From Heptranchias perlo (taxonomy: Eukaryota), in contig NC_090329.1 of the NCBI RefSeq assembly GCF_035084215.1, positions 119,660,001 through 119,724,000 of the forward strand: a stretch of DNA of 64,000 bases, written 5' to 3'. This document shows, in pieces, positions 1 through 51,965 of the stretch. Made by a program: the position numbers and the translations under genes. Below the pieces are notes generated by a model. The model was not told where the DNA came from. It saw nothing but the letters and a program-made list of their open reading frames with translations, and searched no databases. Positions within the stretch are counted from its first letter, which is position 1. Each line of letters begins with the position of its first letter.

Positions 1-1265
1 TGCCCTGGGGCTGAGATGATTGGGCTCCAACAACCACTACCATCTTCCTTTGTTCTAGGTATGACTCCAGCCACTGGAGAGTTTTCCCCCCGATTCCCAT
101 TGACTTCAATTTTACTAGGGCTCCTTGGTGCCACACTCGGTCAAATGCTGCCTTGATGTCAAGGGCAGTCACTCTCACCTCACCTCTGGAATTCAGCTCT
201 TTTGTCCATGTTTGGACCAAGGCTGTAATGAGGTCTGGAGCTGAGTGGTCCTGGCGGAACCCAAACTGAGCATCGGTGAGCAGGTTATTGGTGAGTAAGT
301 GCCACTTGATAGCACTGTCGACGACACCTTCCATCACTTTGCTGATGATTGAGAGTAGACTGATGGGGCGGTAATTGGCCGGATTGGATTTGTCCTGCTT
401 TTTGTGGACAGGACATATCTGGGCAATTTTCCACATTGTCGGGTAGATGCCAGTGTTGTAGCTGTGCTGGAACAGCTTGGCTAGAGGTGCAGCTAGTTCT
501 GGAGCACAAGTCTTCAGCTGGGATGTTGTCGGGGCCCATAGCCTTTGCTGTATCCAGTGCACTCAGCCGTTTCTTGATATCATGTGAAGTGAATCGAATT
601 GGCTGAAGACTGGCTTCTGTGATGGTGGGGATATCGGGAGGAGGCTGAGATGAATCATCCACTCGGCACTTCTGGCCGAAGATGGTTGCAAACGCTTTAG
701 CCTTGTCTTTTGCACTCACGTGCTGGACTCTGCCATCATTGAGGATGGGGATGTTCGCAGAGCCTCCTCCTCCCGTTAGTTGTTTAATTGTCCACCACCA
801 TTCACGACTGGATGTGGCAGGACTGCAGAGCTTTGATCTGATCCGTTGGTTGTGGAATCGCTTAGCTCTGTCTATAGCATGTTGCTTCCGCTGTTTAGCA
901 TGCATGTAGTCCTGTGTTGTAGCTTCACCAGGTTGGCACCTCATTTTTAGGTACACCTGGTGCTGCTCCTGGCATGCTCTTCTACACTTCTCATTGAACC
1001 AGGGTTGATCCCCTGGCTTGTTGGTAATGGTAGAGTGAGGAATATGCCAGGCCATGAGGTTACAGATTGTGCTGGAATACAATTCTACTGCTGCTGATGG
1101 CCCACAGCGCCTCATGAATGCCCAGTTTTGAGCTGCTGGATCTGTTTTGAATCTATCCCATCTGCACGGTGGCAGTGCCACACAACACGTTGGATGGTGT
1201 CCTCAGTGTGAAGATGGGACTTCGTCTCCACAAGGACTGTGCGGTGGTCACTCCTATCAATACTG
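1..1265 (-). mobile_element. Non-LTR retrotransposon ORF2 fragment (Jockey/CR1-superfamily, 'family A'), frameshifted, runs off the window start
   Basis: Minus-strand translation gives PWFNEKCRRAC...SSREWWWTIKQL...KAMGPDNIPA, then after a frameshift WKIAQICPVHKKQDKSNPANYRPISLLSIISKVME and ALDIKAAFDRVWH (RT N-terminal motifs). Near-identical to 21557-22125. Confidence 0.9.
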
Positions 1266-19681: not shown

Positions 19682-20044
19682 TGATGACCGTTCATCCCAT
19701 CGCACCTTAAGGAGCTTCTCATTCATTCCCATTCCTCGTACTCTTTTAAATTTTTTTGCTTCAAATATTTATCCACTTCCCTTTTAAAAGCCAGCGTGGA
19801 TTCTGCTTCCTCCAGTATTTCACCAGTTGAGCTTTCGCCGTCCAATTTTCAAAAGCAAAAAGAAAACTACAAAAACGATTTTCTGTTATATTTTGATAGC
19901 GAATTGATTTGAGTTTCAATTCCCAAAAGTCACGCTGAAAACGTACGGTGCTCTGGACAAGCCACACCTGGAGTGAAAATAAATGTTGGGGAGGGGAGTA
20001 GCTGTACAGTGGTCAGTACAACATTGTACTCCTGAAATTTGATC

Positions 20045-20298
20045 GTAGTCATGATGTGGAGATGCCGGTGATGGACTGGGGTTGACAATTGTAAACAATT
20101 TTACAACACCAAGTTATAGTCCAGCAATTTTATTTTAAATTCACAAGCTTTCGGAGACTTCCTCCTTCCTCAGGTAAATGTTCAGGATCTCGGAGATCCT
20201 GAACATTTACCTGAGGAAGGAGGAAGTCTCCGAAAGCTTGTGAATTTAAAATAAAATTGCTGGACTATAACTTGGTGTTGTAAAATTGTTTACAATTG
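20045..20298 (-). mobile_element. Penelope-like element terminus with perfect inverted duplication and 12-bp TSD
   Basis: Arms 20086-20191 and 20193-20298 are exact reverse complements. TSD tgaaatttgatc at 20033-20044 and 20297-20308. Tail atgatgtggagatgccggtgatggactggggttga lies outside the palindrome. Confidence 0.85.
20205..20245 (+). ncRNA. Minimal type-I hammerhead ribozyme motif (mirror copy on minus strand at 20139-20179)
   Basis: AUUUAC-CUGAGGA-A-GGAG(GAAGU)CUCC-GAAA-GC-UU-GUGAAU: CUGANGA and GAAA boxes, stem II GGAG/CUCC, stem I AUUUAC/GUGAAU, palindromic AAGCUU stem III. Confidence 0.8.
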
Positions 20299-21194
20299 AA
20301 ATTTGATCAGCAGAGAGGTTAAAGCATCTTGAAACAATAAACCAGGTGTAACACAGGGTTAAATCCACATTAATAATACACACACAGCCCCTTCTTAAAA
20401 TACATTATGTCACTCTCTACACACAATGGGAAACAGAACATCAAAGACGCAGTTTATCTCCCTCTGCAAGGTCATTAGTGTTGGCTGCAGTGAGTCACTA
20501 CACACACTTTACAATCTCTTCCTGTCCTTTGATCTTAGAATCATAGAAAGTTACGGCACAGAAGGAGGTCATTCGGCCCATCGTGTCCGTACCGGCCAAA
20601 AAAGAGCTATCCAGCTTAATCCTACTTTCCAGCACTTGATCTGTAGCCCTGTAGGTTACGGCACTTCAAGTGCACATCCAAGTGCTTTTTCGATGAGCTG
20701 AGGTTTTCTGATCTTCTTATTCCCAATACTCAAAGGAATCTACCACAAAATATAGATTGGAAATCACAGCCCGATGTTACGGCTGTGAAATTTCTTATAC
20801 CTTCTTAAAGTACAGCCTCTAAAATCATTCAATCTAATGACATAAAAACGTGGGTAAAGGCACAATTTCTGCCCTGGATTTTGTTCTGGGGTTGTCCCTT
20901 GTGTGGTACTGTTGTTGAGTTTACTACTTATGGTTGCCTGCTCCATTTGGCAGCAATGTACCATTAGCTTAAGTGCAGGTTGTCTGTATCAAATGAAACC
21001 AAGCCCTGCTGTATAAGGCACAGTGACTAAAACACCAGTCAAGCCAGTTATTAGGGGGCGGGGCTGACTAAAATAAACTGGAATTATCTTCATTGATGTA
21101 TCTATGCTCAAAGTCCCATTTGAACCAGGGTTTCACAGCTCATACTTTAGTTACTCAGAGCTAAAAATGGGTTTGCTGTGATTTACACATATCA

Positions 21195-21556: not shown

Positions 21557-22257
21557 TAGCGTTTGCAACCATCTTCAGCCAGAAGTGCAGAGTGGATGAT
21601 CCATCTCAGCCTCCTCCCGATATCCCCACCATCACAGAAGCCAGTCTTCAGCCAATTTGATTCACTCCACGTGATATCAAGAAACGGCTGAGTGCACTGG
21701 ATACCGCAAAGACTATGGGCCCCAACAACATCCCGGCTGTAGTGTTGAAGACTTGTGCTCCAGAACTAGCCGCACCTCTAGCCAAGCTGTTCCAGTACAG
21801 CTACAACACTGACATCTACCCGACAATGTGGAAAATTGCCCAGGTATGTCCTGACCACAAAAAGCAGGACAAATCCAATCCGGCCAATTACCGCCCCATC
21901 AGTCTACTCTCAATCATCAGCAAAGTGATGGAAGGTGTCATCGACAGTGCTATCAAGCGGCACTTACTCACCAATAACCTGCTGACCGATGCTCAGTTTG
22001 GGTTCCGCCAGGACCACTCAGCTCCGGACCTCATTACAGCCTTGGTCCAAACATGGACAAAAGAGCTGAATTCCAGAGGTGAGGTGAGAGTGACTGCCCT
22101 TGACATCAAGGCAGCATTTGACCGAGAACCTTCGCTACACGGACTGCAGCGGTTCAAGAAGGCGGCTCACCACCACCTTCTCAAGGGCAATTAGAGATGG
22201 GCAATAAACGCTGGCCTCGCCAGCAACGCCCACATCCCATGAACGAATAAAAAAAAA
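21557..22257 (+). mobile_element. Family A LINE with internal deletion (RT N-terminus fused to 3' end), poly(A) tail
   Basis: ORF 21715-22194 ...ALDIKAAFDR|EPSLHGLQRFKKAAHHHLLKGN*; ends gaacgaataaaaaaaaa. Confidence 0.9.
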
Positions 22258-31779: not shown

Positions 31780-31929
31780 CATGTTGAAGGCTCTGCAAAC
31801 ATCCTTCTTTTATAAGCAGGGCCTAGTACCCTGGTCATGTTCATTCTCAGATTCTTACACAGTTCAGCTCTCACTGAAGCTACAGAGAGCTGCATTGGTG
31901 CGATTGTAGGCACTCTGTGATTGGCCCGG

Positions 31930-32688
31930 AGCGCGGGATCAGCAATAAAAGGAGGACTGAGAGAGGAGAAAGAGAGCAGGGCGTGGGATTGGCGATAAAA
32001 GGAGGAGCGAGAGAGGAGAGAGAGAGAGAGCGCGGAGTGTGGGATCAGCGATAAAAGGAGGAGAGAGAGAGGAGAGAGAGAGAGCGCAGAGTGTGGGATC
32101 AGCGATAAAAGGAGGAGAGAGAGAGGAGAGAGAGAGAGCGGAGCGAGGGATCAGGATAAAAGGAGGAGTGAGAGAGGAGAGAGAGAGGAGAGTGGGATCA
32201 GGATAAAAGGAGAGAGAGAGAGGAGAGAGAGAGAGCAGAGCGAGGGATCAGGATAAAAGGAGGAGTGAGAGAGGAGAGAGAGAGGAGAGTGGGATCAGCG
32301 ATAAAAGGAGGAGTGAGAGAGGAGAGAGAGAGAGCAGAGCAAGGGATCAGGATAAAAGGAGGAGTGAGAGAGGAGAGAGAGAGAGCGCGGAGCGAGGGAT
32401 CAGGATAAAAGGAGGAGTGAGAGAGGAGAGAGAGAGAGAGCGGAGCGAGGGATCAGGATAAAAGGAGGAGTGAGAGAGGAGAGAGAGAGCGGAGCGAAGG
32501 ATCAGGATAAAAGGAGGAGAGAGAGAGGAGAGAGAGAGCAGAGCGAGGGATCAGGATAAAAGGAGGAGTGAGAGAGGAGAGAGAGAGAGAGAGCGGAGCG
32601 AAGGATCAGGATAAAAGGAGTGAGCGAGGGGAGAGAGAGAGGGGCGTGGGATCGACGATAAAAGGAGGAGTGAGAGAGGAGAGAGAGG
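31930..32688 (+). repeat. Purine-rich tandem array (~15 units of ~45-56 bp) at the 5' end of a CR1
   Basis: Unit gagcgagggatcaggataaaaggaggagtgagagagg(ag)n. Confidence 0.9.
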
Positions 32689-34560
32689 TGAAAAAACACC
32701 TAAAGTGACGTCAGGACAAGGGAAGGAGCTGATTAGTGAGAGGCTGGTGAGTGTTTTTATTAAGTCTTTAAGTTTACTTTTGTTAAGTTTAGTTAATAAT
32801 ATAATAACAGAGGCATGGCAGCGCACCTCAGTCCCGTCAAATGCACATCCAGTGCCATGTGGGAACTCCAGGACACTTCCCGTGCAGGAAGTATCATCAG
32901 CTGGAGGAGCTCGAGCTCCGGGTTTCAGAGTTTGAGCAACAGCTGGCGTCACCGCAGTGTATCCACGAGGCTGAGAGCTCCGTGGATAGCACGTTTCAGG
33001 AGGTGGTCACCCCGTGGGGTTGAAAACCCCTTTAACAAAAGACATTTGAAGGAAAGGGTTAACTGTACCCCTTTTAAACAAAGAGATTTGAAAACCTGCA
33101 AACACAGTAATGTGGTAAACTGTGTTCTCGCAAATCCTGTTTTTCCCTCACTGACGCTGATGACATTGGAGAAGTGTGAGTTTCGGGATCGAAGACATTG
33201 TACTGTGATAGATATCTAGATTATTAAATAAATAAGCTGGATGGATAATATTGAGTTTAAAGCGTTGTCAGGCTTTCAAAACACAAAGGCATTTGGAAGC
33301 ACAAACTTTTCAACACAGCAGGGGGTAATGTAAGAAAAGGAACAAGGACATACATCAAAGGCTTCGGATTGGGAAAGCAATGATAGGTGTGAAAAAAAGC
33401 CTGGGTCTCTCATTCCTATCTGGTAATCTGTTCAAGAGAACTGGGATTTGTAAAACATCGAATAGTGTTGCACTCAGCATATGGTAAAAACGTGTAAGGA
33501 ATGGATTTGAAGCCACTGCAGCAAACAAAATTGGAGACGTCAGGACCATTAAGAATGTCTGTGTGTGGAACTGTAAGGAGCTATCTCTACATGAAAGGCC
33601 ATAAACAGAGACAGTAAAGGGGCCTTTTACAACCCATCGTTCGAGCACATGGTCTTTTCTACATCAAAGGGTCTCCAGTCACATGATCAAAGCCTAAACT
33701 GTCAATCATTGAGGTTATGTTAATGATTGAGGCATAGCAACAGGGAGCGATTGGACAAAAAGAATGACCCTCCCCAATCCTATGTCCTATTGGTAATAAA
33801 ACAATATAAAAAGAAGACTTTGGGAGAAGAACAGTCTCTTCACCACCCGGCAGTCACAAGGAACGCACACTGCAGTTGAACATCACGCAAGAAGAAGAGG
33901 ACCTCAAGGACTGAAGAGCTGATCAACCTTCAGGCCCAATGAGCAAAATCCTTGGTTTAAAGGTTGTCTGTGTGTTAATGATTTGCCTGATGTGTGTATG
34001 AATTGTTAAGTCATTACATAATAAGGTTGTGAATTATTAAGTGTATAGTGGGATTTTATAAAGGAAAGTCATTTGTATGGTTTGATTTTGCTTCATGAAT
34101 GCTCGTATGAATGATGACATCATTAAATAATTACTTTTGATTAACAAAACTACCGTGAGTGAGGGTGACTTTCTTTGCTTGACTATCCGTCCAGTGTCCA
34201 AGAATAACCCAAAATAAGGAATTCCTTACACCCCGCAGTTTAAGAGAGTGCAGGCAGAGAGGGAATGGGTGAACGCCAGACAGACAAGGAGGACCAGGAA
34301 GGTAGAACAGGAGTCCCCTGAGGGAATCTCACTCTCTGACCAGTATTCAGAACAGAGGGAGAGGGTTCGCCTGGGGAGTGCAGCCGGAGTCAAGTCCATA
34401 GCACCACGGGTAGCTCAGATGTACAGGGGAGGAGGAGAAAGGTCAGGAGAGCGATAGTGATTGAAGATTCTATAATTAGGGGAACAGACAGGTGTTTCTG
34501 TGGCCGCAGACATGATTCCAGAATATTATGTTGCCTCCCTGGTGCCAGGGTCAAGGATAT
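32689..34560 (+). mobile_element. CR1 5' UTR and ORF1 remnant, split by a solo LTR
   Basis: MAAHLSPVKCTSSAMWE...CRKYHQLEELELRVSEFEQQL...DSTFQEVVTP (Zn-finger/leucine-zipper-like) resumes after 34230 and reaches IVIEDSIIRGTDRCFCGRRHDSRILCCLPGARVKDI (SGNH/esterase-like domain of CR1 ORF1). Confidence 0.85.
33015..34230 (+). mobile_element. Solo LTR, 1216 bp, 5-bp TSD
   Basis: TG...CA termini; CCCCG at 33010-33014 and 34231-34235; removal restores contiguous CR1 ORF1. CCAAT 33774, ATTGG 33789, TATAAAA 33805, ATTAAA 34122. Confidence 0.8.
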
Positions 34561-34814
34561 TACAACACCAGGTTATAGTCCAACAATTTTATTTGAAAAT
34601 CACAAGCTTTCAGAGGCTTTCTCCTTCATCAGGTGAATGTGGGAATCCTTGAACGTTTCGCATTTATATTCAGAGAACAATACCTGGTGATTACAGATAA
34701 TCTTTCCAACTGCCTGTTGTCAAGGCAATCAAAGTGTTCAGACAGAGAGGTGTTACCTACAGGACCACCGAATATACAAACGGCCAGAACACAAGACAGA
34801 GAGAGAGGGAGTTT
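34559..34814 (-). mobile_element. Penelope-like element terminal fragment
   Basis: ttacaacacc..ttatagtcc...cacaagcttt matches the 20100-20180 family; the remainder matches 48765-48935. Confidence 0.85.
34598..34638 (-). ncRNA. Minimal type-I hammerhead ribozyme motif
   Basis: Minus strand AUUCAC-CUGAUGA-A-GGAG(AAAGC)CUCU-GAAA-GC-UU-GUGAUU. Confidence 0.75.
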
Positions 34815-34820
34815 CTCCCT

Positions 34821-35695
34821 CTCTCTCTTCCACAGAGCTTTCTATTCAAATTTCATTTCCCTGCTGGTTCACTGTATTTTTCTTCATGTATTTATTTAAC
34901 CCACCCCCCTGACAATATGTCCAGATTGATTCCGCTTCAATAGCAAAAGAAACGTAGAAGTTTAGAGCACAGAAGGAGGCCGTTATTTCCACCATGCCTG
35001 TGATGGCTCTTTCCCAAACAAACCAAAACTAATCCCACTACCCTGTTCTTTCCCCATAAATTCTGCATCATCCCCTGCTTCAAATCTTTATCTACTTTTC
35101 CCTTAAAAGATGCAATAAAGAAAAAAATAGAAAGACTTGCATTTATATAGTGCCTTTCATGACCTCAGGACATCCCAAATCACTTTACAGTCAATGAAGT
35201 ACTTTAGAAGTGCAGTCACTTTTGTAATGTAGGAAATGGGAGGGGGGCAGACGATTTGCACGCAGCACGGACCCACAAACAGTAATGTGGTAATGACCAG
35301 ATAATATTGCTGTTCTCTGCTTCCTCCATTCCCAGCGGAAAAGCATTCCAACCCTCTGCCTCAGAAATTTCTTATTAGTGGTAATGTGTTTCATATTCTA
35401 ATAATCCTTTTGGGGGACAAAAAAACATTCTTCTAACCTCAACCTTTATATTTCTCGTACTAACCTTGAGTTTATGTCCCTCTTTACTCTCACCTCACAA
35501 AATCTTTCACTATTTACCATCTCAAGCACTATCAAAATTTTGGACACTTCTATTATATCCAACTGGCGGCTCACCACCGCCTTCTCGAGGACAATTAGGG
35601 ATGGGCAATAAATGCTGGCCTCGCCAGCGACGCCCACATCCCGTGAACGAATAAAAAAAATATATCCCCGAGGTCAATTGGACATTACGTTCCGA
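34821..35695. repeat. Left arm of a ~780-bp inverted duplication (partner 37346-38123)
   Basis: Near-identical reverse complement throughout; the ORF track gives mirrored peptides (MKHITTNKKF..., MECFSAGNGG..., MSLCPSLLSP...). Confidence 0.95.
35561..35660 (+). mobile_element. 100-bp family A LINE 3' end with 7-bp TSD
   Basis: tatatcc at 35554-35560 and 35661-35667; the right arm shows the empty site. Confidence 0.9.
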
Positions 35696-37126
35696 GGACT
35701 GGAGAATTGCAAATGTTACACTCTTGTTCAAAAAAAGGGTGTAAGGATCAACCCAGCAATTATAGGCCAGTCAGTTTAACCTCAGTGGTGGGGAAGCTTT
35801 TAGAAACGATAATCCGGGACAGAATTAGCAGTCACTTGGACAAGTGTGGATTGATTAGGGAAAGCCAACATGGATTTTTTAAAAGGAAATCATGTTTAAC
35901 TAACTTGATAGAGTTTTTTGATGCGGTAACAAAGGGTCGATGAGGGCAATGCGGTTGATGTGGTGTATGTGGACTTTCAAAAGGCATTTGATAAAGTGTC
36001 GCATAATAGGCTTGTCATCAAGATTGAAATCCATGGAATAAAAGGGGCAGTAGCAGCATGGATACAGAATTGGCTAAGTAACAGGAAACAGAGTAGTGGT
36101 GAACGGTTGTTTTTCGGACTGGAGGGATGTGTACAGTGGTGTTCCCCAGGGGTCGGTACTAGGACCACTGCTTTTCTTGATATATATTAATGACTTGGAC
36201 TTGGATGTACAGGGCACAATTTCCAAATTTGCAGATGACACAAAACTTGGAAGTGTAGTGAACAGTGAACAGATAGACTTCAAGAGGATATAGACAGCTT
36301 GGTGGCATGGGCGATCAGATGAAATTTAATGCAGAAAAATGCAAAGTGATACATTTCAGTTGGAAGAATGAGGAGAGGCAATATAAACTATTTTAAAACG
36401 GGTACAGGAACAGAGATCTGGGGTATATGTGCACAAATCGTTGAAGGTGGTAGGGCAGGTTGAGAAAGCGGTTAAAAAAGCATACGGGATCCTGGGCTTT
36501 ATAAATAGAGGCATAGAGTACAAAAGTAAGGAAGTCATGATGAACCTTTATAAAACACTGGTTCGGCCACAACTGGTGTATTGTGTCCAGTTCTGGGCAC
36601 CACACTTCAGGAAAGATGTCAAGGCCTTAGAGAGGGTGCAGAAGAGATTTACTAGAATGGTTCCAGGGATGAGGGATTTTCGTTCCATGGATAAACTGGA
36701 GAAGCTGGGGTGGTTCTCCTTGGAACAGAGAAGGTTGAGAGGAGATTTGATATAAGTATTCAAAATCATGAAGGGTCTAGACAGAGTAGATAGAGAGAAA
36801 CTGTTCCCATTGGCGGAAGGGTCAAGAACCAGAGGACATAGATTTAAGTTGATTGGCAAAAGAACCAAAGGTGACATGAGGAAAAACTTTTTTACACAGC
36901 GTGTGGTTAGGATCTGGAATGCACTGCCCGAGGGGGTGGTGGAGGCAGATTCAATCATGGCCTTCAAAAGGGAACTGGATAAGTACTTGAAAGAAAATAA
37001 TGTGCAGGGCTACGAGGATAGGGCGGGGGAGTGGGACTAGCTGGATTGCTCTTGCATAGAGCCGGTGTGGACTCGATGGGCTGAATAGCCGCCTTCCTTG
37101 CTGTAACCTTTCTATGATTCTGTGAT
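35696..37126 (+). mobile_element. CR1 ORF2 RT to 3' tail, frameshifted
   Basis: [60 protein letters not shown]; tail ttctatgattctgtgat. Confidence 0.95.
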
Positions 37127-37345
37127 ATTGCCGGGCAGATTCAGAGCACCTGTGGCAGCGCCATAACAACAGAGCGTGCGCAAGATTGTTTGCAGGCTGT
37201 CGTCATGACATTACGTTCCTGATCATGGACCTTCGCCAGTGTTAGAGGAAGGACCGTTCATCCTGGTTACTCCTGCAGGATCAGGAGTGGAGATCGACAA
37301 CAACCACCCCACTGCAATTATGGTGGCGGAGCAGATCAAGCACTT

Positions 37346-38123
37346 TCGGAACGTAATGTCCAATTGACCTCGGGGATATAATAGAAGTGTCCAAAATTTT
37401 GATAGTGCTTGAGATGGTAAATAGTGAAAGATTTTGTGAGGTGAGAGTAAAGAGGGACATAAACTCAAGGTTAGTACGAGAAATATAAAGGTTGAGGTTA
37501 GAAGAATGTTTTTTTGTCCCCCAAAAGGATTATTAGAAAATGAAACACATTACCACTAATAAGAAATTTCTGAGGCAGAGGGTTGGAATGCTTTTCCGCT
37601 GGGAATGGAGGAAGCAGAGAACAGCAATATTATCTGGTCATTACCACATTACTGTTTGTGGGTCCGTGCTGCGTGCAAATCGTCTGCCCCCTCCCCCCTC
37701 CCATTTCCTACATTACAAAAGTGACTGCACTTCTAAAGTACTTCATTGACTGTAAAGTGATTTGGGATGTCCTGAGTTCATGAAAGGCGCTACATAAATG
37801 CAAGTCTTTCTTCCTAGTTTTTTTCTTTATTGCATCTTTTAAGGGAAAAGTAGATAAAGATTTGAAGCAGGGGATGATGCAGGGTTTATGGAGAAAGAAC
37901 AGGGTAGTGGGATTAGTTTTGGTTTGTTTGGGAAAGAGCCATCACAGGCATGGTGGAAATAACGGCCTCCTTCTGTGCTCTAAACTTCTACGTTTCTTTT
38001 GCTATTGAAGCGGAATCAATCTGGACATATTGTCGGGGGGTGGGTTAAATAAATACTTGAAGAAAAATACAGCAAACCGGCAGGGAAATGAAATTGGAAT
38101 AGAAAGCTCTGTGGAAGAGAGAG
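37346..38123. repeat. Right arm of the inverted duplication (contains a DeuSINE 3' part and an old CR1 tail)
   Basis: Reverse complement of 34821-35695 minus the LINE insert. Confidence 0.95.
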
Positions 38124-39099
38124 CACCAACACGGGTACAAATAAATTCACATTTTGAACCCTTGGTTTTTTTTCATGCAAACTTCTTAACTCCTACAGTT
38201 CACCTGAAAAGGGGCCATTACTTTGAAACAGGCGTCAGTGTTTGAGGATTGTGAAGCAAAACAGCAAACTATTCAGAAGCAGCAAGATCCCCAGCTGTAA
38301 ATGATTGCTATTGTGGGGATATCTTTTCAGGCAGTTATGCAATTTTTTTTGTGAGATTTAGACCCCCCCCCCCTTTTATAAGAGTGGGGGGTTAGGGTGT
38401 GTTTTAAAACAAATCAAGCAACCAAAATAAGTGTCAAATAATTTTATTGTAACGGTCCAGGATACATTCCAGTCCCTGCGGTGCCCACCGGCCGCGGAAA
38501 GCCTCAAGCGTACCGGCAGACACCGCGTGCTCCCTCTCCAGGGTCACCCGGGCGCGGAGAATGCCGCGGAAGAAAGGCAGACAGTCGGAGTGACCGCCCC
38601 CACGGGCCGCGTCTAAACTGGACCTGTGCAGTTATGCAATCAGGCATAAGTGATTTGTTAATTTTAATGGCTAATTTTCCTTCTAATGTGGGGAGTTGTA
38701 TTATTGATCAGATAATTGGGTTGCTGAGAAGACGTGTGTTTGTACTCGATAGTCCCACTGAAGACAATGGCAGTGTGAGTGTCTGTGCAAATGTCATCCT
38801 CCTTACATTGCTGCAGTTGCTGGGAGCGCGTGGTACCTGTTGTAATTAGAAAGTAAACCCCTTGTTTCACACATGCATTCCTGTTTTAAGTATCGTTTTC
38901 AGATGCAAATGGCAAGCATACTGAACTGGCTTGTTCTCGCCATCTTTGTTAATCCAGGAGTTTTAGCACCGCTCTTCAGTGATGAGTGACCTTTGATTCA
39001 AGCCACAAAGGTGTGAGATGCGGTCTAGGTCCACATTGGTGGTAAGCAATTTGTCTTGTGGAGTTGGACACTGTGTGACCCTATGATCCCCTACCACTA

Positions 39100-39662
39100 T
39101 AAAAAGAAAGGCCTGCATTTATGTAGCACCGAGTGTCTCGAAGCACTTCACATACAATTAATTACTTTGATGTGCAATCACTGTAGCCAAAGATGCCGAG
39201 TATTTTAGATATTGCAAGGTCCCACAAACAGCAATGAGGTGATCCACCAGGTAACCTGTTTTGGTGGTGAGACGAGGAATGTTGACCTTCCTGCACTTCT
39301 TCAAACAGTACCGTGGGATCTTTAACATCCACCTGATAGGGCCTTGTGTTAATATCTCATCCCTAAGGAGAGCACTTCTAACAATGCTGCACTCCCTCAC
39401 TACTCACTACTGCACTGAAGTGTTAGCCTAGATTATCAGGTAGATAGTCTGCAAGGTTTCCCTGAGTTCCCATCATAACTTTTGGTGGAAGATTGGCGGA
39501 AAAGCCAGAGAATGACGTAAACAGCCGATTTTCCGGATTTTTGCCGCTCTTTCACTGAAATTGCAGTGGAGATTGGAAGAATCCCAACGGGAAAACCTGG
39601 AGTGTGGCTCAAACCCACAACCTACTGACTCAGGTGTCAGTGATATAACTGAACCAAACTGA
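39100..39662 (-). mobile_element. Diverged DeuSINE interrupted by an imperfect palindromic MITE-like insert (~39437-39600)
   Basis: SINE breaks after gcctagattat and resumes ctggagtgtgg; the insert has ggtttccc...gggaaaacc and ggcggaaaagcc...ggatttttgccg symmetry. Confidence 0.65.
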
Positions 39663-39869
39663 CAATTTCAAGGGCCCTGAAATTCCTCCGCTCTGGGAGG
39701 GTGGAGAGGAAGATTTCTGCCCCGGGGGATCAAGAATTTGGAGGGATCTGCAGATCTCCCATTGAAGTTACAGTGGGAGATTGGGACAACCCCAATTTCA
39801 GAGCTATAATCTCAATGGACCTACAAAATAAACTATTCATCCAATGTGATGCCAATCGTACTTAGTACA

Positions 39870-40330
39870 GGGCTAAACGGGTTAAATTGAGGCCAAGCTG
39901 CATAGACTAGGTTTGTATTCCCCGGAATATAGATTAAGGGGTGATTCTATTTGAAGTGTTTAAGATGATTAAAGGAATTGATAGGGTAGATAGAGAAACT
40001 ATTTCCTCTGGTGGAGGAGCCCAGAACAAGGGGGCGTAAACCTTAAAATTAGAGCTAGTCCGTTCAAGGGTGATGTCAGAAAGCACTTCTACACACTAAG
40101 GATAGAAGAAATCTGGAACTCTCTTTTCCCGCCCCCCCATCTGTTGAGGCTGGGGGTCATTTGAAAATTTCAAAACTGAGATTGATCGATTTTTGTTAGG
40201 TAAGGGTATTAAGGGCTACGGAACCAAGACTGGTAGATGGAGTCAAGATGCAGATCAGCTATGATCTAATTGAATGGCAGAGCAGGCTCGAGGGGATGAA
40301 TGGCCTACTCCTATTCCTATGTCCTATGTA
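39870..40330 (+). mobile_element. CR1 3' fragment
   Basis: gagaaactatttcctctggtgg...gatctaattgaatggc...cctatgtcctatgt tail. Confidence 0.85.
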
Positions 40331-40503
40331 GTGTTCGGCTTCTATGGATGTATCTGGGATAGGCCTTTGCCTACACAGCAGCAATGGGTGTTGAACATTT
40401 GGTAATATTTCGGTAATTTCACCAGAGGAATAAAATCAGCCTTGCTTGTTGACACTGGGTCAGCTTGGCTCAGATAGTTAGAACCCTCCTCTCTTGGTTA
40501 GAA

Positions 40504-40582
40504 TGATGTGGAGATGCCGGTGATGGACTGGGGTTGACAATTGTAAACAATTTTACAACACCAAGTTATAGTCCAGCAACCT
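40504..40582 (-). mobile_element. 79-bp Penelope-like terminal fragment with 12-bp TSD
   Basis: First 75 bp identical to 20052-20126; tcttggttagaa at 40492-40503 and 40583-40594. Confidence 0.85.
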
Positions 40583-41624
40583 TCTTGGTTAGAAGGTTGT
40601 GAATTTGAGCTTCTTATCAGACTTCTAATATAAGCGAGCACTAGTAATGAACGCTTTACCGTGCTATAAGGGATATTATTAATGAACACATTAGTGCGTA
40701 CTGGGTATATTAAGAATATGCTGTGCAGTACCGGTAATGAATACATTATCCATAGTGACGATTATAGCTCCAGCATAAGTTCGCTCGTTGGCTTGCGTTG
40801 CTATCTCCTGACCTCTTGAACTTTTCATCCTTGCATTATAAAAAAAAATTTTGAAGAAGACCCGAAATAATCCAGATTACTCACAGCTATTGCTTTGAGA
40901 GACAGATATTTAATCCAGAAGGTTCTATATGAGACAAAGCACCCTTCAGGAAACCGGTTTCTGAGTTCATTCCATATCTAGTGGGTTGATATAATAGCTG
41001 CATTTTAAAATAAATCTTACAAAAGCCCGTGTAGAGTAAAATCAACAAACTTCAGCACTTCTGAATGAAAAATGGCTCAGGATACGCTGACCCTCCCGAG
41101 AAAGGTTGAGCTCCAAACACAGATAATAAAACATATCGCAAGAGGGTCAGCAAAACCAGGTTAGCTCTTACTGCAGGTTTGCTGGGTTCGTCTCGTGATG
41201 TTCCTGCATTTTTTTTAGTGGAATGATAGGGATAGAAAAATGGAATTTGTTAAAAAGGCGGATTGGGACGTTTTTTTTAAATGGCAGCCCAGTTCCATCA
41301 ATGTGTCTATTTATAAATATTTAAACACAGATAGACGTTTTTAGCTGTACTATTGAACCGAGAGATTTGTTTTTAGCCAGTCTCTGAAGCATTTCTGTAA
41401 GGCTGCGATGGATTCTTTTAGGGGGCAGTCAAAGAAATACGGTGAGTTTTGACTGACTGTCAGTGTTAATTCACACAAAGCAGAATAAGCGCAGTAATCT
41501 GTTCCAGGGTGGCGCACATGCTCATTGTAATCCTTCTCACTGACAAATGTCAGTGGTCAATATATTCAGCTGAAAAAATGAACTAGAGCAAAACCAAGCT
41601 CTTCGGGCCTATTTACTGTTCAGC

Positions 41625-41974
41625 TCTTCTGTCAGTCTGTAACCTCTCCCCATCACACCTCTATCTACTGGTCCTTTTACTGATGGGGTCTTCTGTCAGT
41701 CTCTCACCTCTCCCCACGACACCTCTATCTACTGGTCCTTTTACTGATGTGGTCTTCCATCAATCCCTAACCTCTCCCCATCACACCTCTATCTACTGGT
41801 CCTTTTACTGATGTGGTCTTCTGTCAGTCTCTAACCTCTCCCCATCACACCTCTATCTACTGGTCCTTTTACTGATGTGGTCTTCTGTCAGTCTCTAACC
41901 TCTCCCCATCACACCTCTATCTACTGGCCCTTTTATTGACAGGGTCTTCTGCCAGTCCCCAACCTCTCCCCATC
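41625..41974. repeat. 64-bp minisatellite, ~5.5 units
   Basis: Unit starts tcttc at 41625, 41689, 41753, 41817, 41881, 41945. Confidence 0.95.
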
Positions 41975-43315
41975 CCAGCTACAGATACCTTCATTGATAA
42001 GTGTCCTTCTTGCCTGTGTCAAACCTCCACCAACACCCACCCCCCCCCAACCTGATTCTTCTTTTTTTACATGACATCATTGACCACTGGCGTTTTCTAA
42101 AATTGGTCACATTACTAAAATACAGAGAGACAAATGGGGGAGGGACAAAGTCTTTCCACCAAAACCATCTGGACACCAAATGTTCTCTCAAAGTTTACTT
42201 TTGAAGGACCCTTTCTTTATTAGTGGTGTTGTGATTTATGACTGATCAGGCCGAGGGGAGTACCAATCACAACAGTCAGAACTTCCATAATCAGTACCAT
42301 TTGGCACCTGAAGCTATTTCAATAAAGCAACAAAGGATAAGGGAGGGCGACACATTTCATTAGGCTATCAGATTTATTGACTGTGAACTTTAAACACCAC
42401 TTAATGTTTTTTAAAACTTTAGGCAAGTATCAAAGAGAAGGAACTAATAGAGATCCACATGCAGAGCTGTTGTTAACTTTTAATTTGCTCTTGAGATGTG
42501 TGAAAAACATCGATGAGCCAGTATTTATTGCCCACCCCGATTACCCTGAGGGCATTAAGAGTCTAAACCAGTGTGGATCTGGAGACACGTGTAGGCCAGT
42601 CCAGGGAGGGGTGGCAGGAGCCTTCCCTGAAGGATATTAGTGAACCAGTGGGTTTTTATGACAATCCAACAGCTTTCATGGTCATTTTATCTGATGCCAG
42701 TCCACAAATTACCACATTTATTGAATTCAGTTTCACTACTTACTGTGATAATATTGTGAGCTCACATCCACTTGGGTTGCTAATCCACTACCATAACCAT
42801 TACCTCACCACTGTCCCAGATACAGGTACAACACCCACCTCCTTTCCATACACATTATAACTCGTCACAGCTCTCTTGCCCAATAAAGAAAAGAGATAAT
42901 ATATTGCACCTTATCGCTTTCAGGATCTAAACTGACACTCAAGTGCAGTACTGAGGGAGTGCTGCATTGTCAGATGTGCCATCCATGAGGCATGAAACTA
43001 AGGTACATCAGAAAACACAGCAGCCATTTTACACACAGAAAAAATTGTGAGACGAACTTCAGCTGAGTAAATTTATTTTTGGACGTTTTGATTGCAGGAG
43101 GAATATTGAGCAAGGGATGGCACACCTGACAATGCAGCACTCCCTCAGTACTGCACTGGAGCGTCAGCCTAATTCACGCACTGAAGTCCTGGTTTGAGGT
43201 GTGAACCCATAACCTTATGATTCAGAGGAAAGAATGGTCCCAACCAGGGCAAGCTGTCAGAAAGAGATTATGTATTACATATTGATATGTATGGTATTTG
43301 CATATTGTTAATTGA

Positions 43316-45469: not shown

Positions 45470-46310
45470 TCCTTCAATTGGGAAGATCGAAGCCATTGTC
45501 TTCGGTCCCCACCGCAAACTCCATTCCCTAGCCACCCACTCCATCCCTCTCCCTGGCCACCGTCTGAGGCTGAACCAGACCTTTTGCAACCTTGGCATCC
45601 TTTTTGTCCCTGAATGAGCTTCCGACCACATATCCGCTCCATCACCAAGACCACCTACTTCCACCTCTGTAACATCGCCCCTCTCTGCCCCTGCCTCAGC
45701 TCATCTGCTGCTGAAACCCTCATCCATGCCTTTGTTACCTCCAGATTGGACTATTCCAATGGTTTCCTGGTCGGCCTTCCATCTTCCACTCTCCATAAAC
45801 TTCAGCTCATCCAAAACTCTGCTGCCCGTATCCTAACTTGCACCAAATCATGTTCTCCCATTACCTCTGTGCTCACTGACCTACATTGGCTCCCGGTCCG
45901 GGAGTGCCTTGATTTTAAAATTCTCATCCTTGTTTTCAAATCCTTCCATGGCCTCGCCCCACCCTATCTCTGTAACCTCCTCCAGCCCGACAACTCTCTG
46001 AGATCTCTGCGCTCCTCCAATTCTGGCCTCTTTCGCATCCCCAATTTTAATCGCTCCACCATTGACGGTCGTGTCTTCAGCTGTCTAGGCCCTAAGCTCT
46101 GGAATTCCCTCCCTAAACCTCTCCGCCTTTCTACCTCTCTATCCTCCTTTAAGTTGTTCCTTAAAACCTACCTCTTTGACCAAGTTTTTGGTCACCTGTC
46201 CTAATATCTCCTTATGTGGCTTGGTGTCAAATTTTGTTTGATAACACTCCTGTGAAGTGCCTTGGGATGTTTTACTATGTTAAAGGGGCTATATAAATGC
46301 AAGGTGTTTT
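45470..46310 (+). mobile_element. L2 LINE 3' 0.84 kb
   Basis: ORF 45614-46204 ETLIHAFVTSRLDYSN...QLIQNSAARIL...LHWLPV...KLWNSLP. Confidence 0.95.
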
Positions 46311-47402
46311 TGAAATGAACTGGATCCAGGACCCCACACTTGCTCATTGGTAATTGAAATGAACTGGATCCAGGACCCCACACTTGCTCATTGGTAATTG
46401 AAATGAACTGGATCCAAGACCCCACACTTGCTCATTGGTAATTGAAATGAACTGGATCCAGGACCCCACACTTGCTCATCGCTAATTGAAATGAACTGGA
46501 TCCAAGACCCCACACTTGCTCATTGGTAATTGATATGAACTGGATCCAAGACCCCACACTTGCTCATTGGTAATTGATATGAACTGGATCCAAGACCCCA
46601 CACTTGCTCATTGGTAATTGATATGAACTGGATCCAAGACCCCACACTTGCTCATTGGTAATTGATATGAACTGGATCCAAGACCCCACACTTGCTCATT
46701 GGTAATTGATATGAACTGGATCCAAGACCCCACACTTGCTCATTGGTAATTGAAATGAACTGGATCCAGGACCGCACACTTGCTCATTGGTAATTGATAT
46801 GAACTGGATCCAAGACCCCACACTTGCTCATTGGTAATTGAAATGAACTGGATCCAGGAACCCACACTTGCTCATTGGTAATTGATATGAACTGGATCCA
46901 AGACCCCACACTTGCTCATTGGTAATTGATATGAACTGGATCCAAGACCCCACACTTGCTCATTGGTAATTGATATGAACTGGATCCAAGACCCCACACT
47001 TGCTCATCGCTAATTGAAATGAACTGGATCCAAGACCCCACACTTGCTCATCGCTAATTGAAATGAACTGGATCCAGGACTGCACACTTGCTCATCGCTA
47101 ATTGAAATGAACTGGATCCAGGACTGCACACTTGCTCATCGCTAATTGAAATGAACTGGATCCAGGACTGCACACTTGCTCATCGCTAATTGAAATGAAC
47201 TGGATCCAAGACCCCACACTTGCTCATCGCTAATTGAAATGAACTGGATCCAAGACCCCAAACTTGCTCATCGCTAATTGAAATGAACTGGATCCAAGAC
47301 CCCACACTTGCTCATCGCTAATTGAAATGAACTGGATCCAAGACCCCACACTTGCTCATCGCTAATTGATATGAACTGGATCCAAGACCCCACACTTGCT
47401 CA
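46311..47402. repeat. 44-bp minisatellite, ~25 units
   Basis: Unit tga(a/t)atgaactggatcca(a/g)gaccccacacttgctcat(tgg/cgc)taat. Confidence 0.97.
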
Positions 47403-47889: not shown

Positions 47890-49600
47890 CCAGAAGACTT
47901 GAATATTGCAAAAGTCACACCCTTGTTCAAAAAAGGAGAGAGGGATAAACCTGACAATTACAGGCCAATCAGTCTAATGTTGGTGGGGAAACTTTTAGAG
48001 ACAATAATTGGGGACAAAATTAATTGGCACTTGGAAAATATGAGCTAATAAATGAAAGTCAGCACTGATTTGTTAAAGGAAAATCATGTTTGACTAACTT
48101 GATTGAGTTCTCTGATGAAGTAACGGTGAGGGTTGATGAGGGTAGTACAGTTGATGTTGTGTATATGGACTTTCAAAATGCATTTGATAAAGTACCACAT
48201 AATAGACTTGTTAGCAAAATTAAAGCCCATGGGATTAAAAGGACATTGCAGCGTGGATACAAAATTGGCTAAGGGACAGAAAGCAGAGAGTAGTGGTGAA
48301 TGGTTGTTTTTCAGATTGGAGGGAAGTATACAGTGGTGTTCCCCAGGGGTCAGTATTAGGACCACTGCTCTTTTTGATATATATTAATGACCTGGACACG
48401 GGTATAGAGGGTATAATTTCAAAATTTGCAGATGACACGAGACTCGAAATGTAGTAAACAATGTGGAGGATAGTAACAGATTTCAGGAGAACATAGACAG
48501 ACTGGTGAAATGGGCAGATGAAGTGATACATTTTGGTAGGAAGAATGAGGACAGGCAATATAAACTAAATGGTATAATTTTAAAGGGGGTGCAGGAACAG
48601 AGAGACCTGGGAGTGCACCTACATAAATCTTTGAAGGTGGCAGGACAAGTTGAGAAGGCTGTTAAAACATATGGGATCTTGGGTTTTATTAATACAGGTA
48701 GAGTACAAAAACAAGGAAGTTATGCTAAACCTTTATAATTGTAAACAATTTTACAACACCAATGTGGAAATGAAATCCTCGAACCTTTCGCATTTATAAA
48801 TCACAGAACAATACCTGGTGATTACAGATAGTCTTTCCAACTGCCCGTTGCCAAGGCAATCACTGTGTGCAGACAGAGAGGTGTTACCTACAGGGCCACC
48901 GAATATACAAACAACCAAAAAAAAACAGAGAGAGAGGCAGAAACATCCGGAAGGAAGAGAAAGACAGCAAATGACCCATTATATTAAAAACAGATAACTT
49001 TTGTTCACTGGTGGGGTTACGTGTAGCGTGACCCACCAACTAAACCTTTATAAAACGCTGGTCAGGCCTCAGCTGGAGTATTGTGCCCAATTCTGGGCAC
49101 CACACTTTATGGAGGATATCAAGGCCTTAGAGAGGGTGCAGAAGAGGTTTATTAGAATGGCACCAGAGATGAGGGACTTCAGTTACATGGATAGTTTGGA
49201 GAAGCTGGGGTTATTCTCCTTAGAACAGAGGAGATTCGATAGAGGTGTTCAAAATCATGAACGGTTTTAATAGAGTAAATAAGGAGAAACTGTTTCCAGT
49301 GGCAGAGGGGTCAGTAACCAGAGGACACAGATTTAAGGTGATTGGCAAAAGAAGCAGAGATGACATGAGGGAACATTTTTACGCAGTGAATTGTAATGAT
49401 CTGGAATGTACTGCCTGAAAGGTGATGGAAGCAGATTCAATAGTAACTTTCAAAAGGGAATTGGATAAATATTTGAAGGGAAAAAATTTACAGGGCTATG
49501 AGGAAAGGGACTAATTGGATAACTCTTTTAAAGAGCCGGACAGGCACGATGGACTGAATGGTCGCCTTCTGTGGTGTACCTACTTTGATATTATGATCTG
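47890..49600 (+). mobile_element. CR1 ORF2 RT to 3' tail, interrupted by a PLE insert
   Basis: [40 protein letters not shown]. Confidence 0.95.
48739..49039 (-). mobile_element. Penelope-like terminal fragment lacking the hammerhead, 14-bp TSD
   Basis: ctaaacctttataa at 48725-48738 and 49040-49053; homologous to 34559-34812 and 20086-20112. Confidence 0.85.
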
Positions 49601-50110: not shown

Positions 50111-50732
50111 AGGAGGGTCTGGATGTGTTGCTGTCCCGATAGACAGCACCATCATCTGTGCTAACTCCAGCCCTGCCCTCGCTGCTGGACACTGCCCTCA
50201 TGTTGCTGTTTGGGACCTTATTGTCAGCAAATTGGCTGCTGTGTTTCCTACAACAGTGACTACACTTCAAAAGTATTTCATTGGCTGTAAAACGCTTGTC
50301 CTGGGGTTGTGAAAGGCGCTATAGAAATGCAAGTCGTTCTTTCTTCTCAGCACTAATCTGTGTGACTGTAGACTTGATGGCCCCAATGTGATTCTGTGAA
50401 GCCCTCGACTGACATCTCTCTAAATGCGATCCCCCAGCATGAGGAAGCCTGAGGAGAGAGAGCCCATTCCATATTGGTGCCCAAGTCCTCTATAGCAGCA
50501 GTCTGAGCATTCACAACAGGTGGGATTAGGGTCTCTGTCAATGGGAGGCTGTGTTGCAGAAGTCCCTCGAGTTGCCGTATGCTCAATAGTGAGCTGAATG
50601 CCTGAGAGTCCACCTGTTTGGGTTACATGCTCACAAAGCACCTTTCTTTCAATAGCAGGCCCGTGAGGCCCACACCGATGGACCTTCGGGGAGCAGGTAC
50701 AAGCCCCTACCACTACCTGCTCCTGCTCAGCT

Positions 50733-51156
50733 GTGCTCCGTACATTACCCGGTGCTCGGTACATTACCCGGTGCTCGGTACATTACCCGGTGCTCCGTAC
50801 ATTACCCGGTGCTCGGTACATTACCCGGTGCTCGGTACATTACCCGGTGCTCCGTACATTACCCGGTGCTCGGTACATTACCCGGTGCTCCGTACATTAC
50901 CCGGTGCTCCGTACATTACCCGGTGCTCGGTACATTACCCGGTGCTCGGTACATTACCCGGTGCTCGGTACATTACCCGGTACTCCGTACATTACCCGGT
51001 GCTCCGTTCATTACCCGGTGCTCGGTACATTACCCGGTGCTCGGTACATTACCCGGTGCTCGGTACATTACCCGGTGCTCCGTACATTACCCGGTGCTCC
51101 GTACATTACCCGGTGCTCCGTACATTACCCGGTGCTCCGTACATTACCCGGTGCTC
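50733..51156. repeat. 19-bp CpG-rich minisatellite, ~22 units
   Basis: Unit gtgctc(c/g)gtacattacccg. Confidence 0.97.
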
Positions 51157-51965
51157 TCTGCTCAAACGCAGTATCTAAATCCTCTGGGGTGGGCGTACCT
51201 GGGCTGGTGGTGCTTACATGGGTAACACTGAGGGATGCTGGCACTGTGAACTGCATGACACCTCTGACGCACTCAGCCAAGCTACAGAACTAGAGGAAGG
51301 GAAAAGGACAGTAGGGGACTATGCTGCCATCTTGACAAGCTGTCAAATACAGCTTACAGCAGCTTACAAGTTACACTGTGTTATGCTTGAGGTTTGATGC
51401 CAGTGAGTGAATGAGTGATTGAGGATGGCACAAACCCTGAATTGGTCGCTGACTCTGACTTCTTCATTTCCCTGCTCCCCTCTATACTTTCGGCAAGGTG
51501 CCCGTCTAGAAATCTCCCAAGGATATTATTTTATGTTATGTTATGGGCTCCCCTTCCTGGGCGGGTTTGCTAATCCTGATTAGGGCTGATTCCCTTTCAT
51601 GGACACTAAACAGACACTAAGCACCTGAGGTGCACCTCACCTGACATATCAGAGGAGCAGGCCACCTCAAAAGGGAATTGGATCTATAATTGAAAAGGAA
51701 AAATGTGTAGGGCTATGGGGAAAGGGCAGGGGTGTGGGACTAACCTGGATAGCTCTTTCAAAGAGCTGGCTCAGGCACGATGGACCGAATGGCCTCCTCT
51801 GTGCTGTAAGATTCTATGATTCCCTGCTTGGGAGGCCCTCAGTCTTTGGCCTGCTCAGCAGACCCTTCGGTCTACGGTAGTCTTGTGGCAGGCCCTTGTG
51901 CCAAGTGCCTTCAGGCACCACTAAGCACCGCTATGCTGGGGCTCCCAACGGTGGGACAAACAGCA

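What the first reader, a model, noticed from the sequence alone, without database searches (positions are those of the whole stretch)
34559..38123. Penelope fold-back and template switch appear to have built a 780-bp inverted duplication and removed the middle of a CR1
Seen: CR1 ORF1 stops at 34560 and a hammerhead-bearing PLE fragment follows. At its truncated end is a perfect 14-bp hairpin (agagagagagggag-TTT-ctccctctctctct, 34798-34828). The hairpin's last 8 bases are also the first bases of an inverted copy of 37346-38123, which runs to 35695 and joins CR1 ORF2 at the RT N-terminus; the rest of ORF1 and the endonuclease are missing. Inference: PLE cDNA self-primed, switched via (CT)n microhomology to genomic DNA ~3.3 kb away, copied ~780 bp backwards and re-joined inside the CR1. 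PLE inverted termini are known; I do not recall PLE-driven inverted capture of flanking host DNA with deletion being described.
Basis: partly seen in the sequence, partly recalled or inferred. Interest (0 to 1): 0.8.

Follow-up and report, generated by a model that had tools for sequence, protein, structure and literature searches.

The report
Fold-back repair scar at Penelope insertion
A piece of a jumping gene sits at an old chromosome break where the cell deleted about 2 kb and pasted in a flipped copy of nearby DNA; the scar is real, but it looks like a known kind of DNA repair accident, not a new trick of the jumping gene.

Summary
The arrangement is real: CR1 5' part, a 251-bp Penelope-like (PLE) fragment, a 14-bp hairpin, an inverted copy of 37346-38123 (13 substitutions in 767 columns, changes on both arms), then CR1 ORF2 with about 1.9 kb missing. 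The hairpin loop TTT is the complement of the next PLE bases (seen in a second copy at 48.9 kb); a cDNA snap-back would keep AAA. Eight of the 14 stem pairs are simply the junction microhomology. The geometry (deletion, inverted duplication, 1650-bp single-copy spacer, 2-bp microhomology) is the fold-back inverted-duplication pattern, described in human rearrangements and beside L1 insertions. Most likely the right-hand end of a break folded back, copied 778 nt and was joined into a PLE head-to-head junction. I prefer a break at a pre-existing PLE palindrome (0.45) over one step during insertion with twin priming (0.28): the copy lacks the target-site duplication seen at 3 of 3 other copies, starts about 15 nt inside the usual end, and looks older than the arms (weak CpG test). 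I found no PLE case in seven literature searches. One fossil event, new host element, known process.

The parts
31914..31921 (+). Left copy of a putative 8-bp target-site duplication (TCTGTGAT) of the host CR1
   Evidence: Only shared 8-mer between the two CR1 ends; chance 0.002 for this 8-mer in a 30-position window, 0.017 for any 8-mer between random windows. It overlaps the CR1 tail repeat on the right, so it is suggestive, not proof.
31922..34560 (+). 5' part of a CR1 LINE: AG-rich tandem-repeat 5' region (about 31940-32690), ORF1 from ATG 32815 (broken, interrupted by a 1.2-kb insert), cut off in the esterase-like part
   Evidence: tblastn of bird CR1 model P0035 to 34436-34594, E 1e-8. 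'Esterase' is a recalled label.
34561..34811 (-). PLE 3'-terminal (pseudo-LTR) fragment, 251 bp, 5'-truncated; no target-site duplication; 3' side starts about 15 nt inside the end used by other copies
   Evidence: 88% to copies at 20098-20181 and 48774-48940; end mapping and duplication search
34599..34637 (-). Minimal type-I hammerhead motif; the G10.1-C11.1 pair has decayed to G-U in this copy
   Evidence: Own descriptor, 3 hits, 0.03 expected; features from PMC4209133 passages; no Rfam hit
34798..34828 (.). 14-bp hairpin = PLE head-to-head junction: forward copy to 34811, inverted PLE piece 34811-34828 (TTT loop templated; 34821-34828 shared with the duplicated arm)
   Evidence: 17 of 18 match to the reverse complement of 48927-48944
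34821..35695 (-). Inverted copy of 37346-38123 (768 bp of copy plus a later 107-bp insertion)
   Evidence: 13 substitutions in 767 columns; of 5 sites with paralogue data, 3 changed on the right arm and 2 on the left
35561..35660 (+). 100-bp LINE 3' end with A-rich tail, inserted after the duplication; 7-bp duplication TATATCC at 35554 and 35661
   Evidence: 93-94% to three other window copies; absent from the right arm, which has one copy of the target
35694..37126 (+). 3' part of the CR1: ORF2 from just before the RT domain (frameshifted) to the tail; 2-bp microhomology GA (35694-35695) with the arm; right copy of TCTGTGAT at 37119
   Evidence: PF00078 pieces, one above the gathering score; about 50% to bird CR1 ORF2; junction
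35696..37345 (.). 1650-bp single-copy spacer between the arms (CR1 3' part plus 220 bp of unique DNA): the inferred fold-back loop
37346..38123 (+). Original (donor) segment, 778 bp; ends in the only AGAGAGAG of 35696-42000 and continues into unduplicated DNA on both sides

Best explanation
Two steps. (1) A PLE inserted into ORF1 of a full-length CR1 in the family's ordinary head-to-head form: two truncated copies making a near-unspaced palindrome with arms of up to about 250 bp (inferred; the copy at 20046-20298 shows this form intact). (2) The palindrome later broke near its centre (inferred). The right-hand DNA end was resected; its 3' single strand lost the other PLE arm, the target duplication and about 1.9 kb of CR1, folded back on itself at 37346 using 2 bp of microhomology, and a host polymerase copied 778 nt rightwards to the first (AG)4 tract. 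That new 3' end annealed by 8 bp to the (CT)n tract left in the stub of the inverted PLE arm and the ends were joined. A LINE 3' end later inserted into the new arm. Shown: the product, junctions, microhomologies, templated TTT, order of the last insertion. Inferred: the direction of copying, the palindrome, the timing.
For: Geometry = deletion + inverted duplication + 1650-bp spacer + 2-bp inverted microhomology, as in fold-back rearrangements (spacers 766-70,466 bp, 2 bp in 7 of 13 junctions; PMC3907307 passages). TTT is templated PLE sequence, which fits a remnant of a full inverted arm. The same family makes a 213-bp palindrome with a 12-bp target duplication 14 kb away. 3 of 3 other PLE copies have 12-14-bp duplications, this one none. 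Four other PLE ends map to two positions (20051; 20086-20087), this one to 20101, as expected if the surviving arm is the shorter one (PMC3846280 describes an inverted pLTR 37 bp shorter). CpG decay: 3 of 5 reference CpGs lost in this PLE copy, none the other way, against 2 of 26 branch-sites in the arms, Fisher p = 0.02. Non-spaced inverted repeats are recombinogenic in mammalian cells (PMC3300023 abstract).
Against: No orthologous locus or family consensus was available, so the pre-existing palindrome is not seen. The CpG test uses two other copies that may be a different subfamily, has five sites, and was post hoc. A perfect stem is less likely if the PLE is old (0.12 at 10% decay vs 0.83 at 0.9%), unless palindromes self-correct. 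TTT rests on one reference copy (88% identical). Two bp of microhomology is near chance (134 of 1000 simulated junctions in PMC3907307). The sequence cannot fix the direction of copying.
Confidence: 0.45

Rival explanations
1. One step, during insertion: the PLE nicks CR1 ORF1 and reverse-transcribes 251 nt; the opposite end is resected, folds back and copies 778 nt as above; its AGAGAGAG end then primes a second, 10-nt reverse transcription on the PLE RNA (twin priming) and the two cDNA ends join through one G-C pair.
For: Explains TTT, the 8-bp microhomology, the short overlap and the missing target duplication with no extra assumption. Each step is inferred for L1: fold-back inverted duplication next to an insertion, fold-back plus twin priming, 1-10-bp duplications at 10 of 32 internal junctions (PMC11702581). 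A purified PLE protein cleaves and extends both strands (PMC11167929).
Against: The PLE looks older than the arms (weak). The PLE end joined to CR1 is about 15 nt inside the sites used by four other ends. Twin-primed L1 insertions usually keep their target duplication. Needs more than 3.5 kb of resection while the RNA survives.
Confidence: 0.28
2. Replication template switching at an existing PLE palindrome: a fork stalls just past the palindrome centre, the nascent ...CTCTCTCT end switches to 38123, copies 778 nt leftwards and switches again to 35694 (FoSTeS/MMBIR type; names recalled). Same direction as the first reader's, but DNA-templated and host-driven.
For: Gives the same product, TTT included; 8-bp and 2-bp microhomologies; fits the age and end evidence as well as the best explanation.
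Against: Needs two long-range switches ahead of the fork; 48 AGAGAGAG starts with up to 12-nt match lay upstream in the CR1 5' region against one at 38116.
Confidence: 0.12
3. One reading: PLE cDNA snaps back on itself, copies 14 nt, jumps by (CT)n microhomology to genomic DNA, copies 778 nt backwards and rejoins inside CR1.
For: Perfect stem including the GGGAG variant not seen in the 48.9-kb copy; 8-bp microhomology; self-priming is proposed for PLE palindromes (PMC3846280).
Against: The loop should be AAA but is TTT, and TTT plus the flanking G equals the complement of the next four PLE bases; matching by chance through untemplated bases is roughly 1 in 20 to 1 in 64 for three bases (base frequencies), or a later 3-nt micro-inversion is needed. 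Only 6 stem pairs are PLE-only. Needs an RT to copy 778 nt of duplex DNA about 4.3 kb away.
Confidence: 0.07
4. The two CR1 pieces are different insertions and nothing was deleted; a 5'-truncated CR1 and the inverted arm lie next to an unrelated CR1 5' part.
For: No full-length relative was found to link ORF1 and ORF2 (no ORF1 match elsewhere in the window; empty). CR1 copies truncated near the same RT position occur in the window (47893, 24945).
Against: Same strand, right order, and an 8-bp repeat at the outer ends.
Confidence: 0.04
5. Assembly or read artefact (fold-back chimera, or the other haplotype mis-joined).
For: No reads were available; the inner 430 bp of the arms have only 1 substitution, which polishing could cause.
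Against: Both arms carry their own derived changes and one has a LINE insertion with a 7-bp target duplication; junctions have microhomology; a chimera would give near-identical arms.
Confidence: 0.03

Closest known systems
L1 insertions with inversion or inverted duplication of target-flanking DNA (Mendez-Dorantes et al., PMC11702581, Fig. S9A-C)
   Same: Truncated retroelement joined to an inverted copy of nearby DNA; inferred resection, fold-back and displacement synthesis of the opposite end; one case with twin priming.
   Different: PLE not L1; germline fossil not cell culture; 778-bp duplication with 1650-bp loop and about 1.9 kb lost (the L1 inverted duplication spans about 0.13 kb by its printed coordinates); may postdate the insertion.
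Fold-back inverted duplication with deletion (Hermetz et al., PMC3907307)
   Same: Deletion, inverted duplication, single-copy spacer of kb size, 2-bp inverted microhomology at the spacer junction.
   Different: Interstitial and sub-kb, healed against the left end of the same break; no terminal deletion, telomere addition or dicentric stage is visible.
PLE head-to-head inverted termini and tail (PMC3846280; PMC8557442; PMC11167929)
   Same: Inverted truncated copy abutting the 5'-truncated end; minimal hammerhead; the 20-kb copy shows palindrome, one-sided 35-40-nt tail and target duplication.
   Different: Here the inverted copy is only 18 nt, there is no target duplication, and host DNA follows in inverted orientation. 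The host-DNA capture described for rotifer PLEs is between pLTRs with a target duplication, not a local inversion.
Local fold-back templated inversions at double-strand breaks in yeast (PMC11724301, abstract only)
   Same: Microhomology-primed fold-back synthesis at one end, capture by end joining at the other.
   Different: Mostly 5-34 bp; no retroelement involved.

Membership tests
Penelope-like element (truncated copy) | Minimal hammerhead motif in the terminal repeat (core, extra base before stem II, palindromic helix III) | tested here: met
   Own descriptor hit at 34599-34637, 0.03 expected; stem II closing pair decayed; Rfam no hit
Penelope-like element (truncated copy) | ORF with telomerase-like RT and GIY-YIG endonuclease | not testable with these tools
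   The fragments found in the window are terminal pieces of at most about 300 bp; no PLE ORF was searched
Penelope-like element (truncated copy) | Inverted truncated copy head-to-head at the 5' end | tested here: met
   34811-34828; full form at 20086-20298
Penelope-like element (ordinary insertion) | Target-site duplication | tested here: not met
   None adjacent to the junctions of this copy; 12, 12 and 14 bp at 3 of 3 other copies
Penelope-like element (ordinary insertion) | 3' end at one of the two initiation (tail) positions | tested here: not met
   Starts at 20101-equivalent vs 20051 and 20086-20087 for four other ends; subfamily difference not excluded
CR1 LINE (one element) | ORF1, then ORF2 with endonuclease and RT; both pieces from one insertion | tested here: inconclusive
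   ORF1 and RT homology met; endonuclease absent; 8-bp terminal repeat supports one element; no full-length relative to compare
Fold-back inverted duplication with deletion | Inverted duplication separated by a single-copy spacer of 0.8-70 kb | tested here: met
   778-bp arms, 1650-bp spacer (range)
Fold-back inverted duplication with deletion | Inverted microhomology of 2 bp or more at the spacer junction | tested here: met
   GA at 35694-35695; near chance on its own
Fold-back inverted duplication with deletion | Adjacent deletion on the break side | tested here: met
   About 1.9 kb by bird CR1 spacing: 473 aa between endonuclease-start and RT-start motifs in 4 of 5 models that had both (411 in the fifth), about 160 aa of ORF1 from one model; inferred, no empty allele
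Fold-back inverted duplication with deletion | Dicentric intermediate and terminal healing | not testable with these tools
   Event is interstitial; works like the fold-back step but is not the terminal form
Twin-primed insertion (L1 type) | Microhomology at the second priming site; internal breakpoints close together | tested here: met
   8 bp; overlap 14 nt (6 nt PLE-only) vs 1-10 bp in L1
Twin-primed insertion (L1 type) | Target duplication kept; rearrangement simultaneous with insertion | tested here: inconclusive
   No duplication; CpG test points to an older PLE, p = 0.02, weak
Direct cDNA snap-back | Loop retains the next template-derived cDNA bases (AAA) on the strand joined to the primer | tested here: not met
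   Loop is TTT, the complement; one reference copy

The most novel reading that the evidence does not exclude
PLE head-to-head junctions are a recurrent germline source of local deletion-plus-inverted-duplication in this genome, either because their palindromes are fragile sites or because the PLE reverse transcriptase captures 3' ends made by host fold-back repair; the strand identity of the loop bases would then be a genome-wide fossil readout of which end primed first and of how PLE inverted termini form, an open question in PLE biology.
Probability: 0.25. Interest if true: 0.6.

Novelty: new member of a known kind. Interest (0 to 1): 0.3.

Why it matters
As one event it changes little: it rearranges dead repeats, and no host gene was identified in the affected stretch. 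Its value is as a worked example. It extends a rearrangement class seen with L1 in cell lines and in human patients to a PLE in a vertebrate germline, and it suggests a cheap test: compare loop bases of PLE palindromes with the family consensus to tell snap-back from double priming, and count how often palindromic copies have lost a flank. PLE papers read here call the origin of inverted termini unresolved.

Tried and rejected
Rfam (whole window, E<=1): no hammerhead; the best hits were microRNA models on the 20-kb palindrome, below gathering score. Free RNA folding of the hammerhead region was not better than shuffles (z 0.73 and -1.0). Homologue search with an ORF1 piece: none of 38 candidates passed, so no close full-length CR1 for the deletion size; bird models were used (10 of 120 hits in tblastn). 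A second ORF2 search to place the organism gave 32 hits, 53-70% identical, with no species name; not used. The organism is therefore not established by a tool; I recall these repeats as typical of cartilaginous fishes. An exact-pattern scan of bacterial and archaeal genomes for stray PLE copies found nothing. The 52-codon open frame in the spacer (37209-37364) has no Pfam, solved-structure or atlas support: rejected as an exon for now. No second PLE reference covers the centre of the 20-kb palindrome, so the loop test could not be repeated there. PMC12910113 and PMC9977147 passages held no PLE-linked inverted duplication.


Full report
Observation. The window is repeat-rich vertebrate DNA; the CR1 RT is about 50% identical to bird CR1 proteins. 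I recall the repeat set as that of a cartilaginous fish; no tool confirmed this. From left to right the locus reads: CR1 5' region and broken ORF1 (31922-34560); PLE fragment on the minus strand (34561-34811); hairpin (34798-34828); inverted arm (34821-35695); CR1 ORF2 from just before the RT domain to the tail (35694-37126); 220 bp of unique DNA; the original segment (37346-38123), which continues into unduplicated DNA.

The arms are a real, aged duplication. They differ by 13 substitutions in 767 columns and three small indels. Five sites could be polarised with paralogues in the window: three changed on the right arm, two on the left. The left arm alone carries a 100-bp LINE 3' end flanked by a 7-bp duplication, with one copy of the target in the right arm. 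A fold-back read artefact would not look like this. Substitutions are uneven: 12 of 13 lie in the outer 347 bp (KS p = 0.003, or 0.011 counting adjacent pairs once), which arm-to-arm conversion or polishing could explain; unresolved.

The two CR1 pieces are probably one element. TCTGTGAT occurs at the 5' start (31914) and at the tail (37119); chance 0.002-0.017 depending on the null, and the right copy overlaps the tail repeat. Bird CR1 models put 473 residues between the endonuclease-start and RT-start motifs (4 of 5 models with both) and about 160 residues of ORF1 after the break (one model), so about 1.9 kb is missing and the donor end lay about 4.3 kb from the break.

The PLE family in this window. 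Three other copies exist. At 20046-20298 the copy is a 213-bp palindrome (105 of 105 arm positions identical) with a one-sided tail of 35-40 nt and a 12-bp target duplication; at 40503-40579 a 77-bp end with a 12-bp duplication; at 48737-49039 a copy inside another CR1 with a 14-bp duplication. The finding's copy has no duplication next to any junction, and its 3'-side end lies about 15 nt inside the nearer of the two positions used by the four other ends. Two initiation sites that define a tail are reported for the anole PLE (PMC11167929, parts 1-2 of 4 read). A minimal hammerhead descriptor hits only this copy and the two arms of the 20-kb copy (features from passages of PMC4209133).

The hairpin is not a simple snap-back. 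The 48.9-kb copy runs on past the point where the finding's copy stops, as AGAGAGAGAGGCAG-AAAC. Bases 34811-34828 match its reverse complement at 17 of 18. The junction is therefore head-to-head: forward copy to position p, inverted copy from p+4, sharing one G. If the cDNA attached to CR1 ORF1 had folded on itself, the loop would read AAA on the + strand; it reads TTT. Of the 14 stem pairs, 8 come from the (AG)4 end of the genomic arm and only 6 are PLE-only. TTT is what one gets if the opposite strand was the primed cDNA (a full palindrome later cut down), if a second end primed on the RNA, or, half the time, after replication through a hairpin-capped end. This argument rests on one reference copy, 88% identical.

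The rest is a fold-back scar. Deletion, inverted duplication, 1650-bp single-copy spacer and 2-bp inverted microhomology are the features of fold-back inverted duplications (PMC3907307, passages: spacers 766-70,466 bp; 2 bp at 7 of 13 junctions, but also at 134 of 1000 simulated ones). One intramolecular event explains deletion, spacer and arm together: the resected right end, trimmed to 35694, primes at 37346 and is extended to 38123, the first AGAGAGAG downstream. A CR1 paralogue reads GTGCCAGA where the donor reads GTTCCGA, so the pairing may have been longer but imperfect. For L1, an inverted duplication beside an insertion by fold-back and displacement synthesis, and a fold-back inversion with twin priming, are inferred in PMC11702581 (12 of 24 matching passages of the main text and part 3 of 5 of supplementary file 1, legends and labels only).

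Timing. Sequence alone cannot separate one step from two. For two steps: missing target duplication, non-canonical PLE end, an intact palindrome of the same family nearby, and more CpG decay in the PLE (3 of 5, none in the opposite direction) than in the arms (2 of 26 branch-sites; p = 0.02). The PLE differs from the two other copies at 22 of 220 columns, against 0.9% per arm, but part of that may be subfamily difference. Non-spaced inverted repeats are recombinogenic in mammalian cells (PMC3300023, abstract). Against two steps: a perfect stem is less likely in an old copy (0.12 at 10% decay). The fold-back of the right end is common to the first two (0.73).

Literature. PLE inverted termini, junction palindromes, self-priming as a hypothesis, template jumps and capture of host DNA between terminal repeats are in print (PMC3846280, parts 1-4 of 5 read; PMC8557442, passages). 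I found no PLE with an adjacent local inverted duplication and deletion in searches; the library lacks most subscription papers, including older Penelope work that I recall linking the element to inversion breakpoints in Drosophila, and I did not read supplements of the PLE papers, which could hold such cases. PMC11724301 was seen as abstract only; and as listings only.

Verdict. It works like a fold-back inverted duplication healed into a PLE junction, a process known from L1 and from human rearrangements. It is a new member of a known kind, a single fossil event in dead repeats. Interest 0.3; it would rise to about 0.6 if a genome-wide count showed PLE head-to-head junctions doing this often.

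Noticed in passing
window 20033-20308: Textbook PLE head-to-head palindrome: 213 bp, 1-nt centre, 35-40-nt tail on one side, 12-bp target duplication; it scores as a microRNA hairpin in Rfam below threshold. The 10 nt next to the centre do not match the other copies.
   Followed up: partly
window 40492-40594 and 48725-49053: Two more PLE insertions with 12- and 14-bp target duplications; the 48.7-kb copy sits inside another CR1, has an internal deletion and about 10 extra bases at its truncated end. Two of four PLE copies in the window lie inside CR1 elements.
   Followed up: partly
window 37203-37370: A 13-bp perfect inverted repeat (37207 and 37348), part of a bulged quasi-palindrome; the left end of the duplicated segment falls 2 nt into its 9-nt bulge. 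Only 0.8% of the window lies within 3 nt of such an arm. Unexplained; could have exposed the priming site or directed a cut.
   Followed up: partly
window 34821-35695 vs 37346-38123: 12 of 13 substitutions fall in the outer 347 bp of the arms; the inner 430 bp have one. Possible arm-to-arm gene conversion or polishing effect.
   Followed up: partly
window 33015-34228: 1.2-kb insert in CR1 ORF1, unique in the window, with a 7-nt repeat at its ends; looks like a solo LTR (label recalled, not tested).
   Followed up: no
window 31938-32690: CR1 5' region made of about 15 AG-rich units of 46-56 bp.
   Followed up: no
window 37209-37364: 52-codon open frame in CpG-rich unique DNA of the spacer; no Pfam, structure or atlas support.
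   Followed up: yes
window 41536-41980, 46310-47400, 50600-51200: Minisatellite arrays: 64-bp units, about 40-bp units and short coding-looking units.
   Followed up: no
window 136-696 and 21558-22126: Two 95%-identical LINE copies in opposite orientation 21 kb apart; dispersed repeats of a young family, not a local duplication.
   Followed up: no
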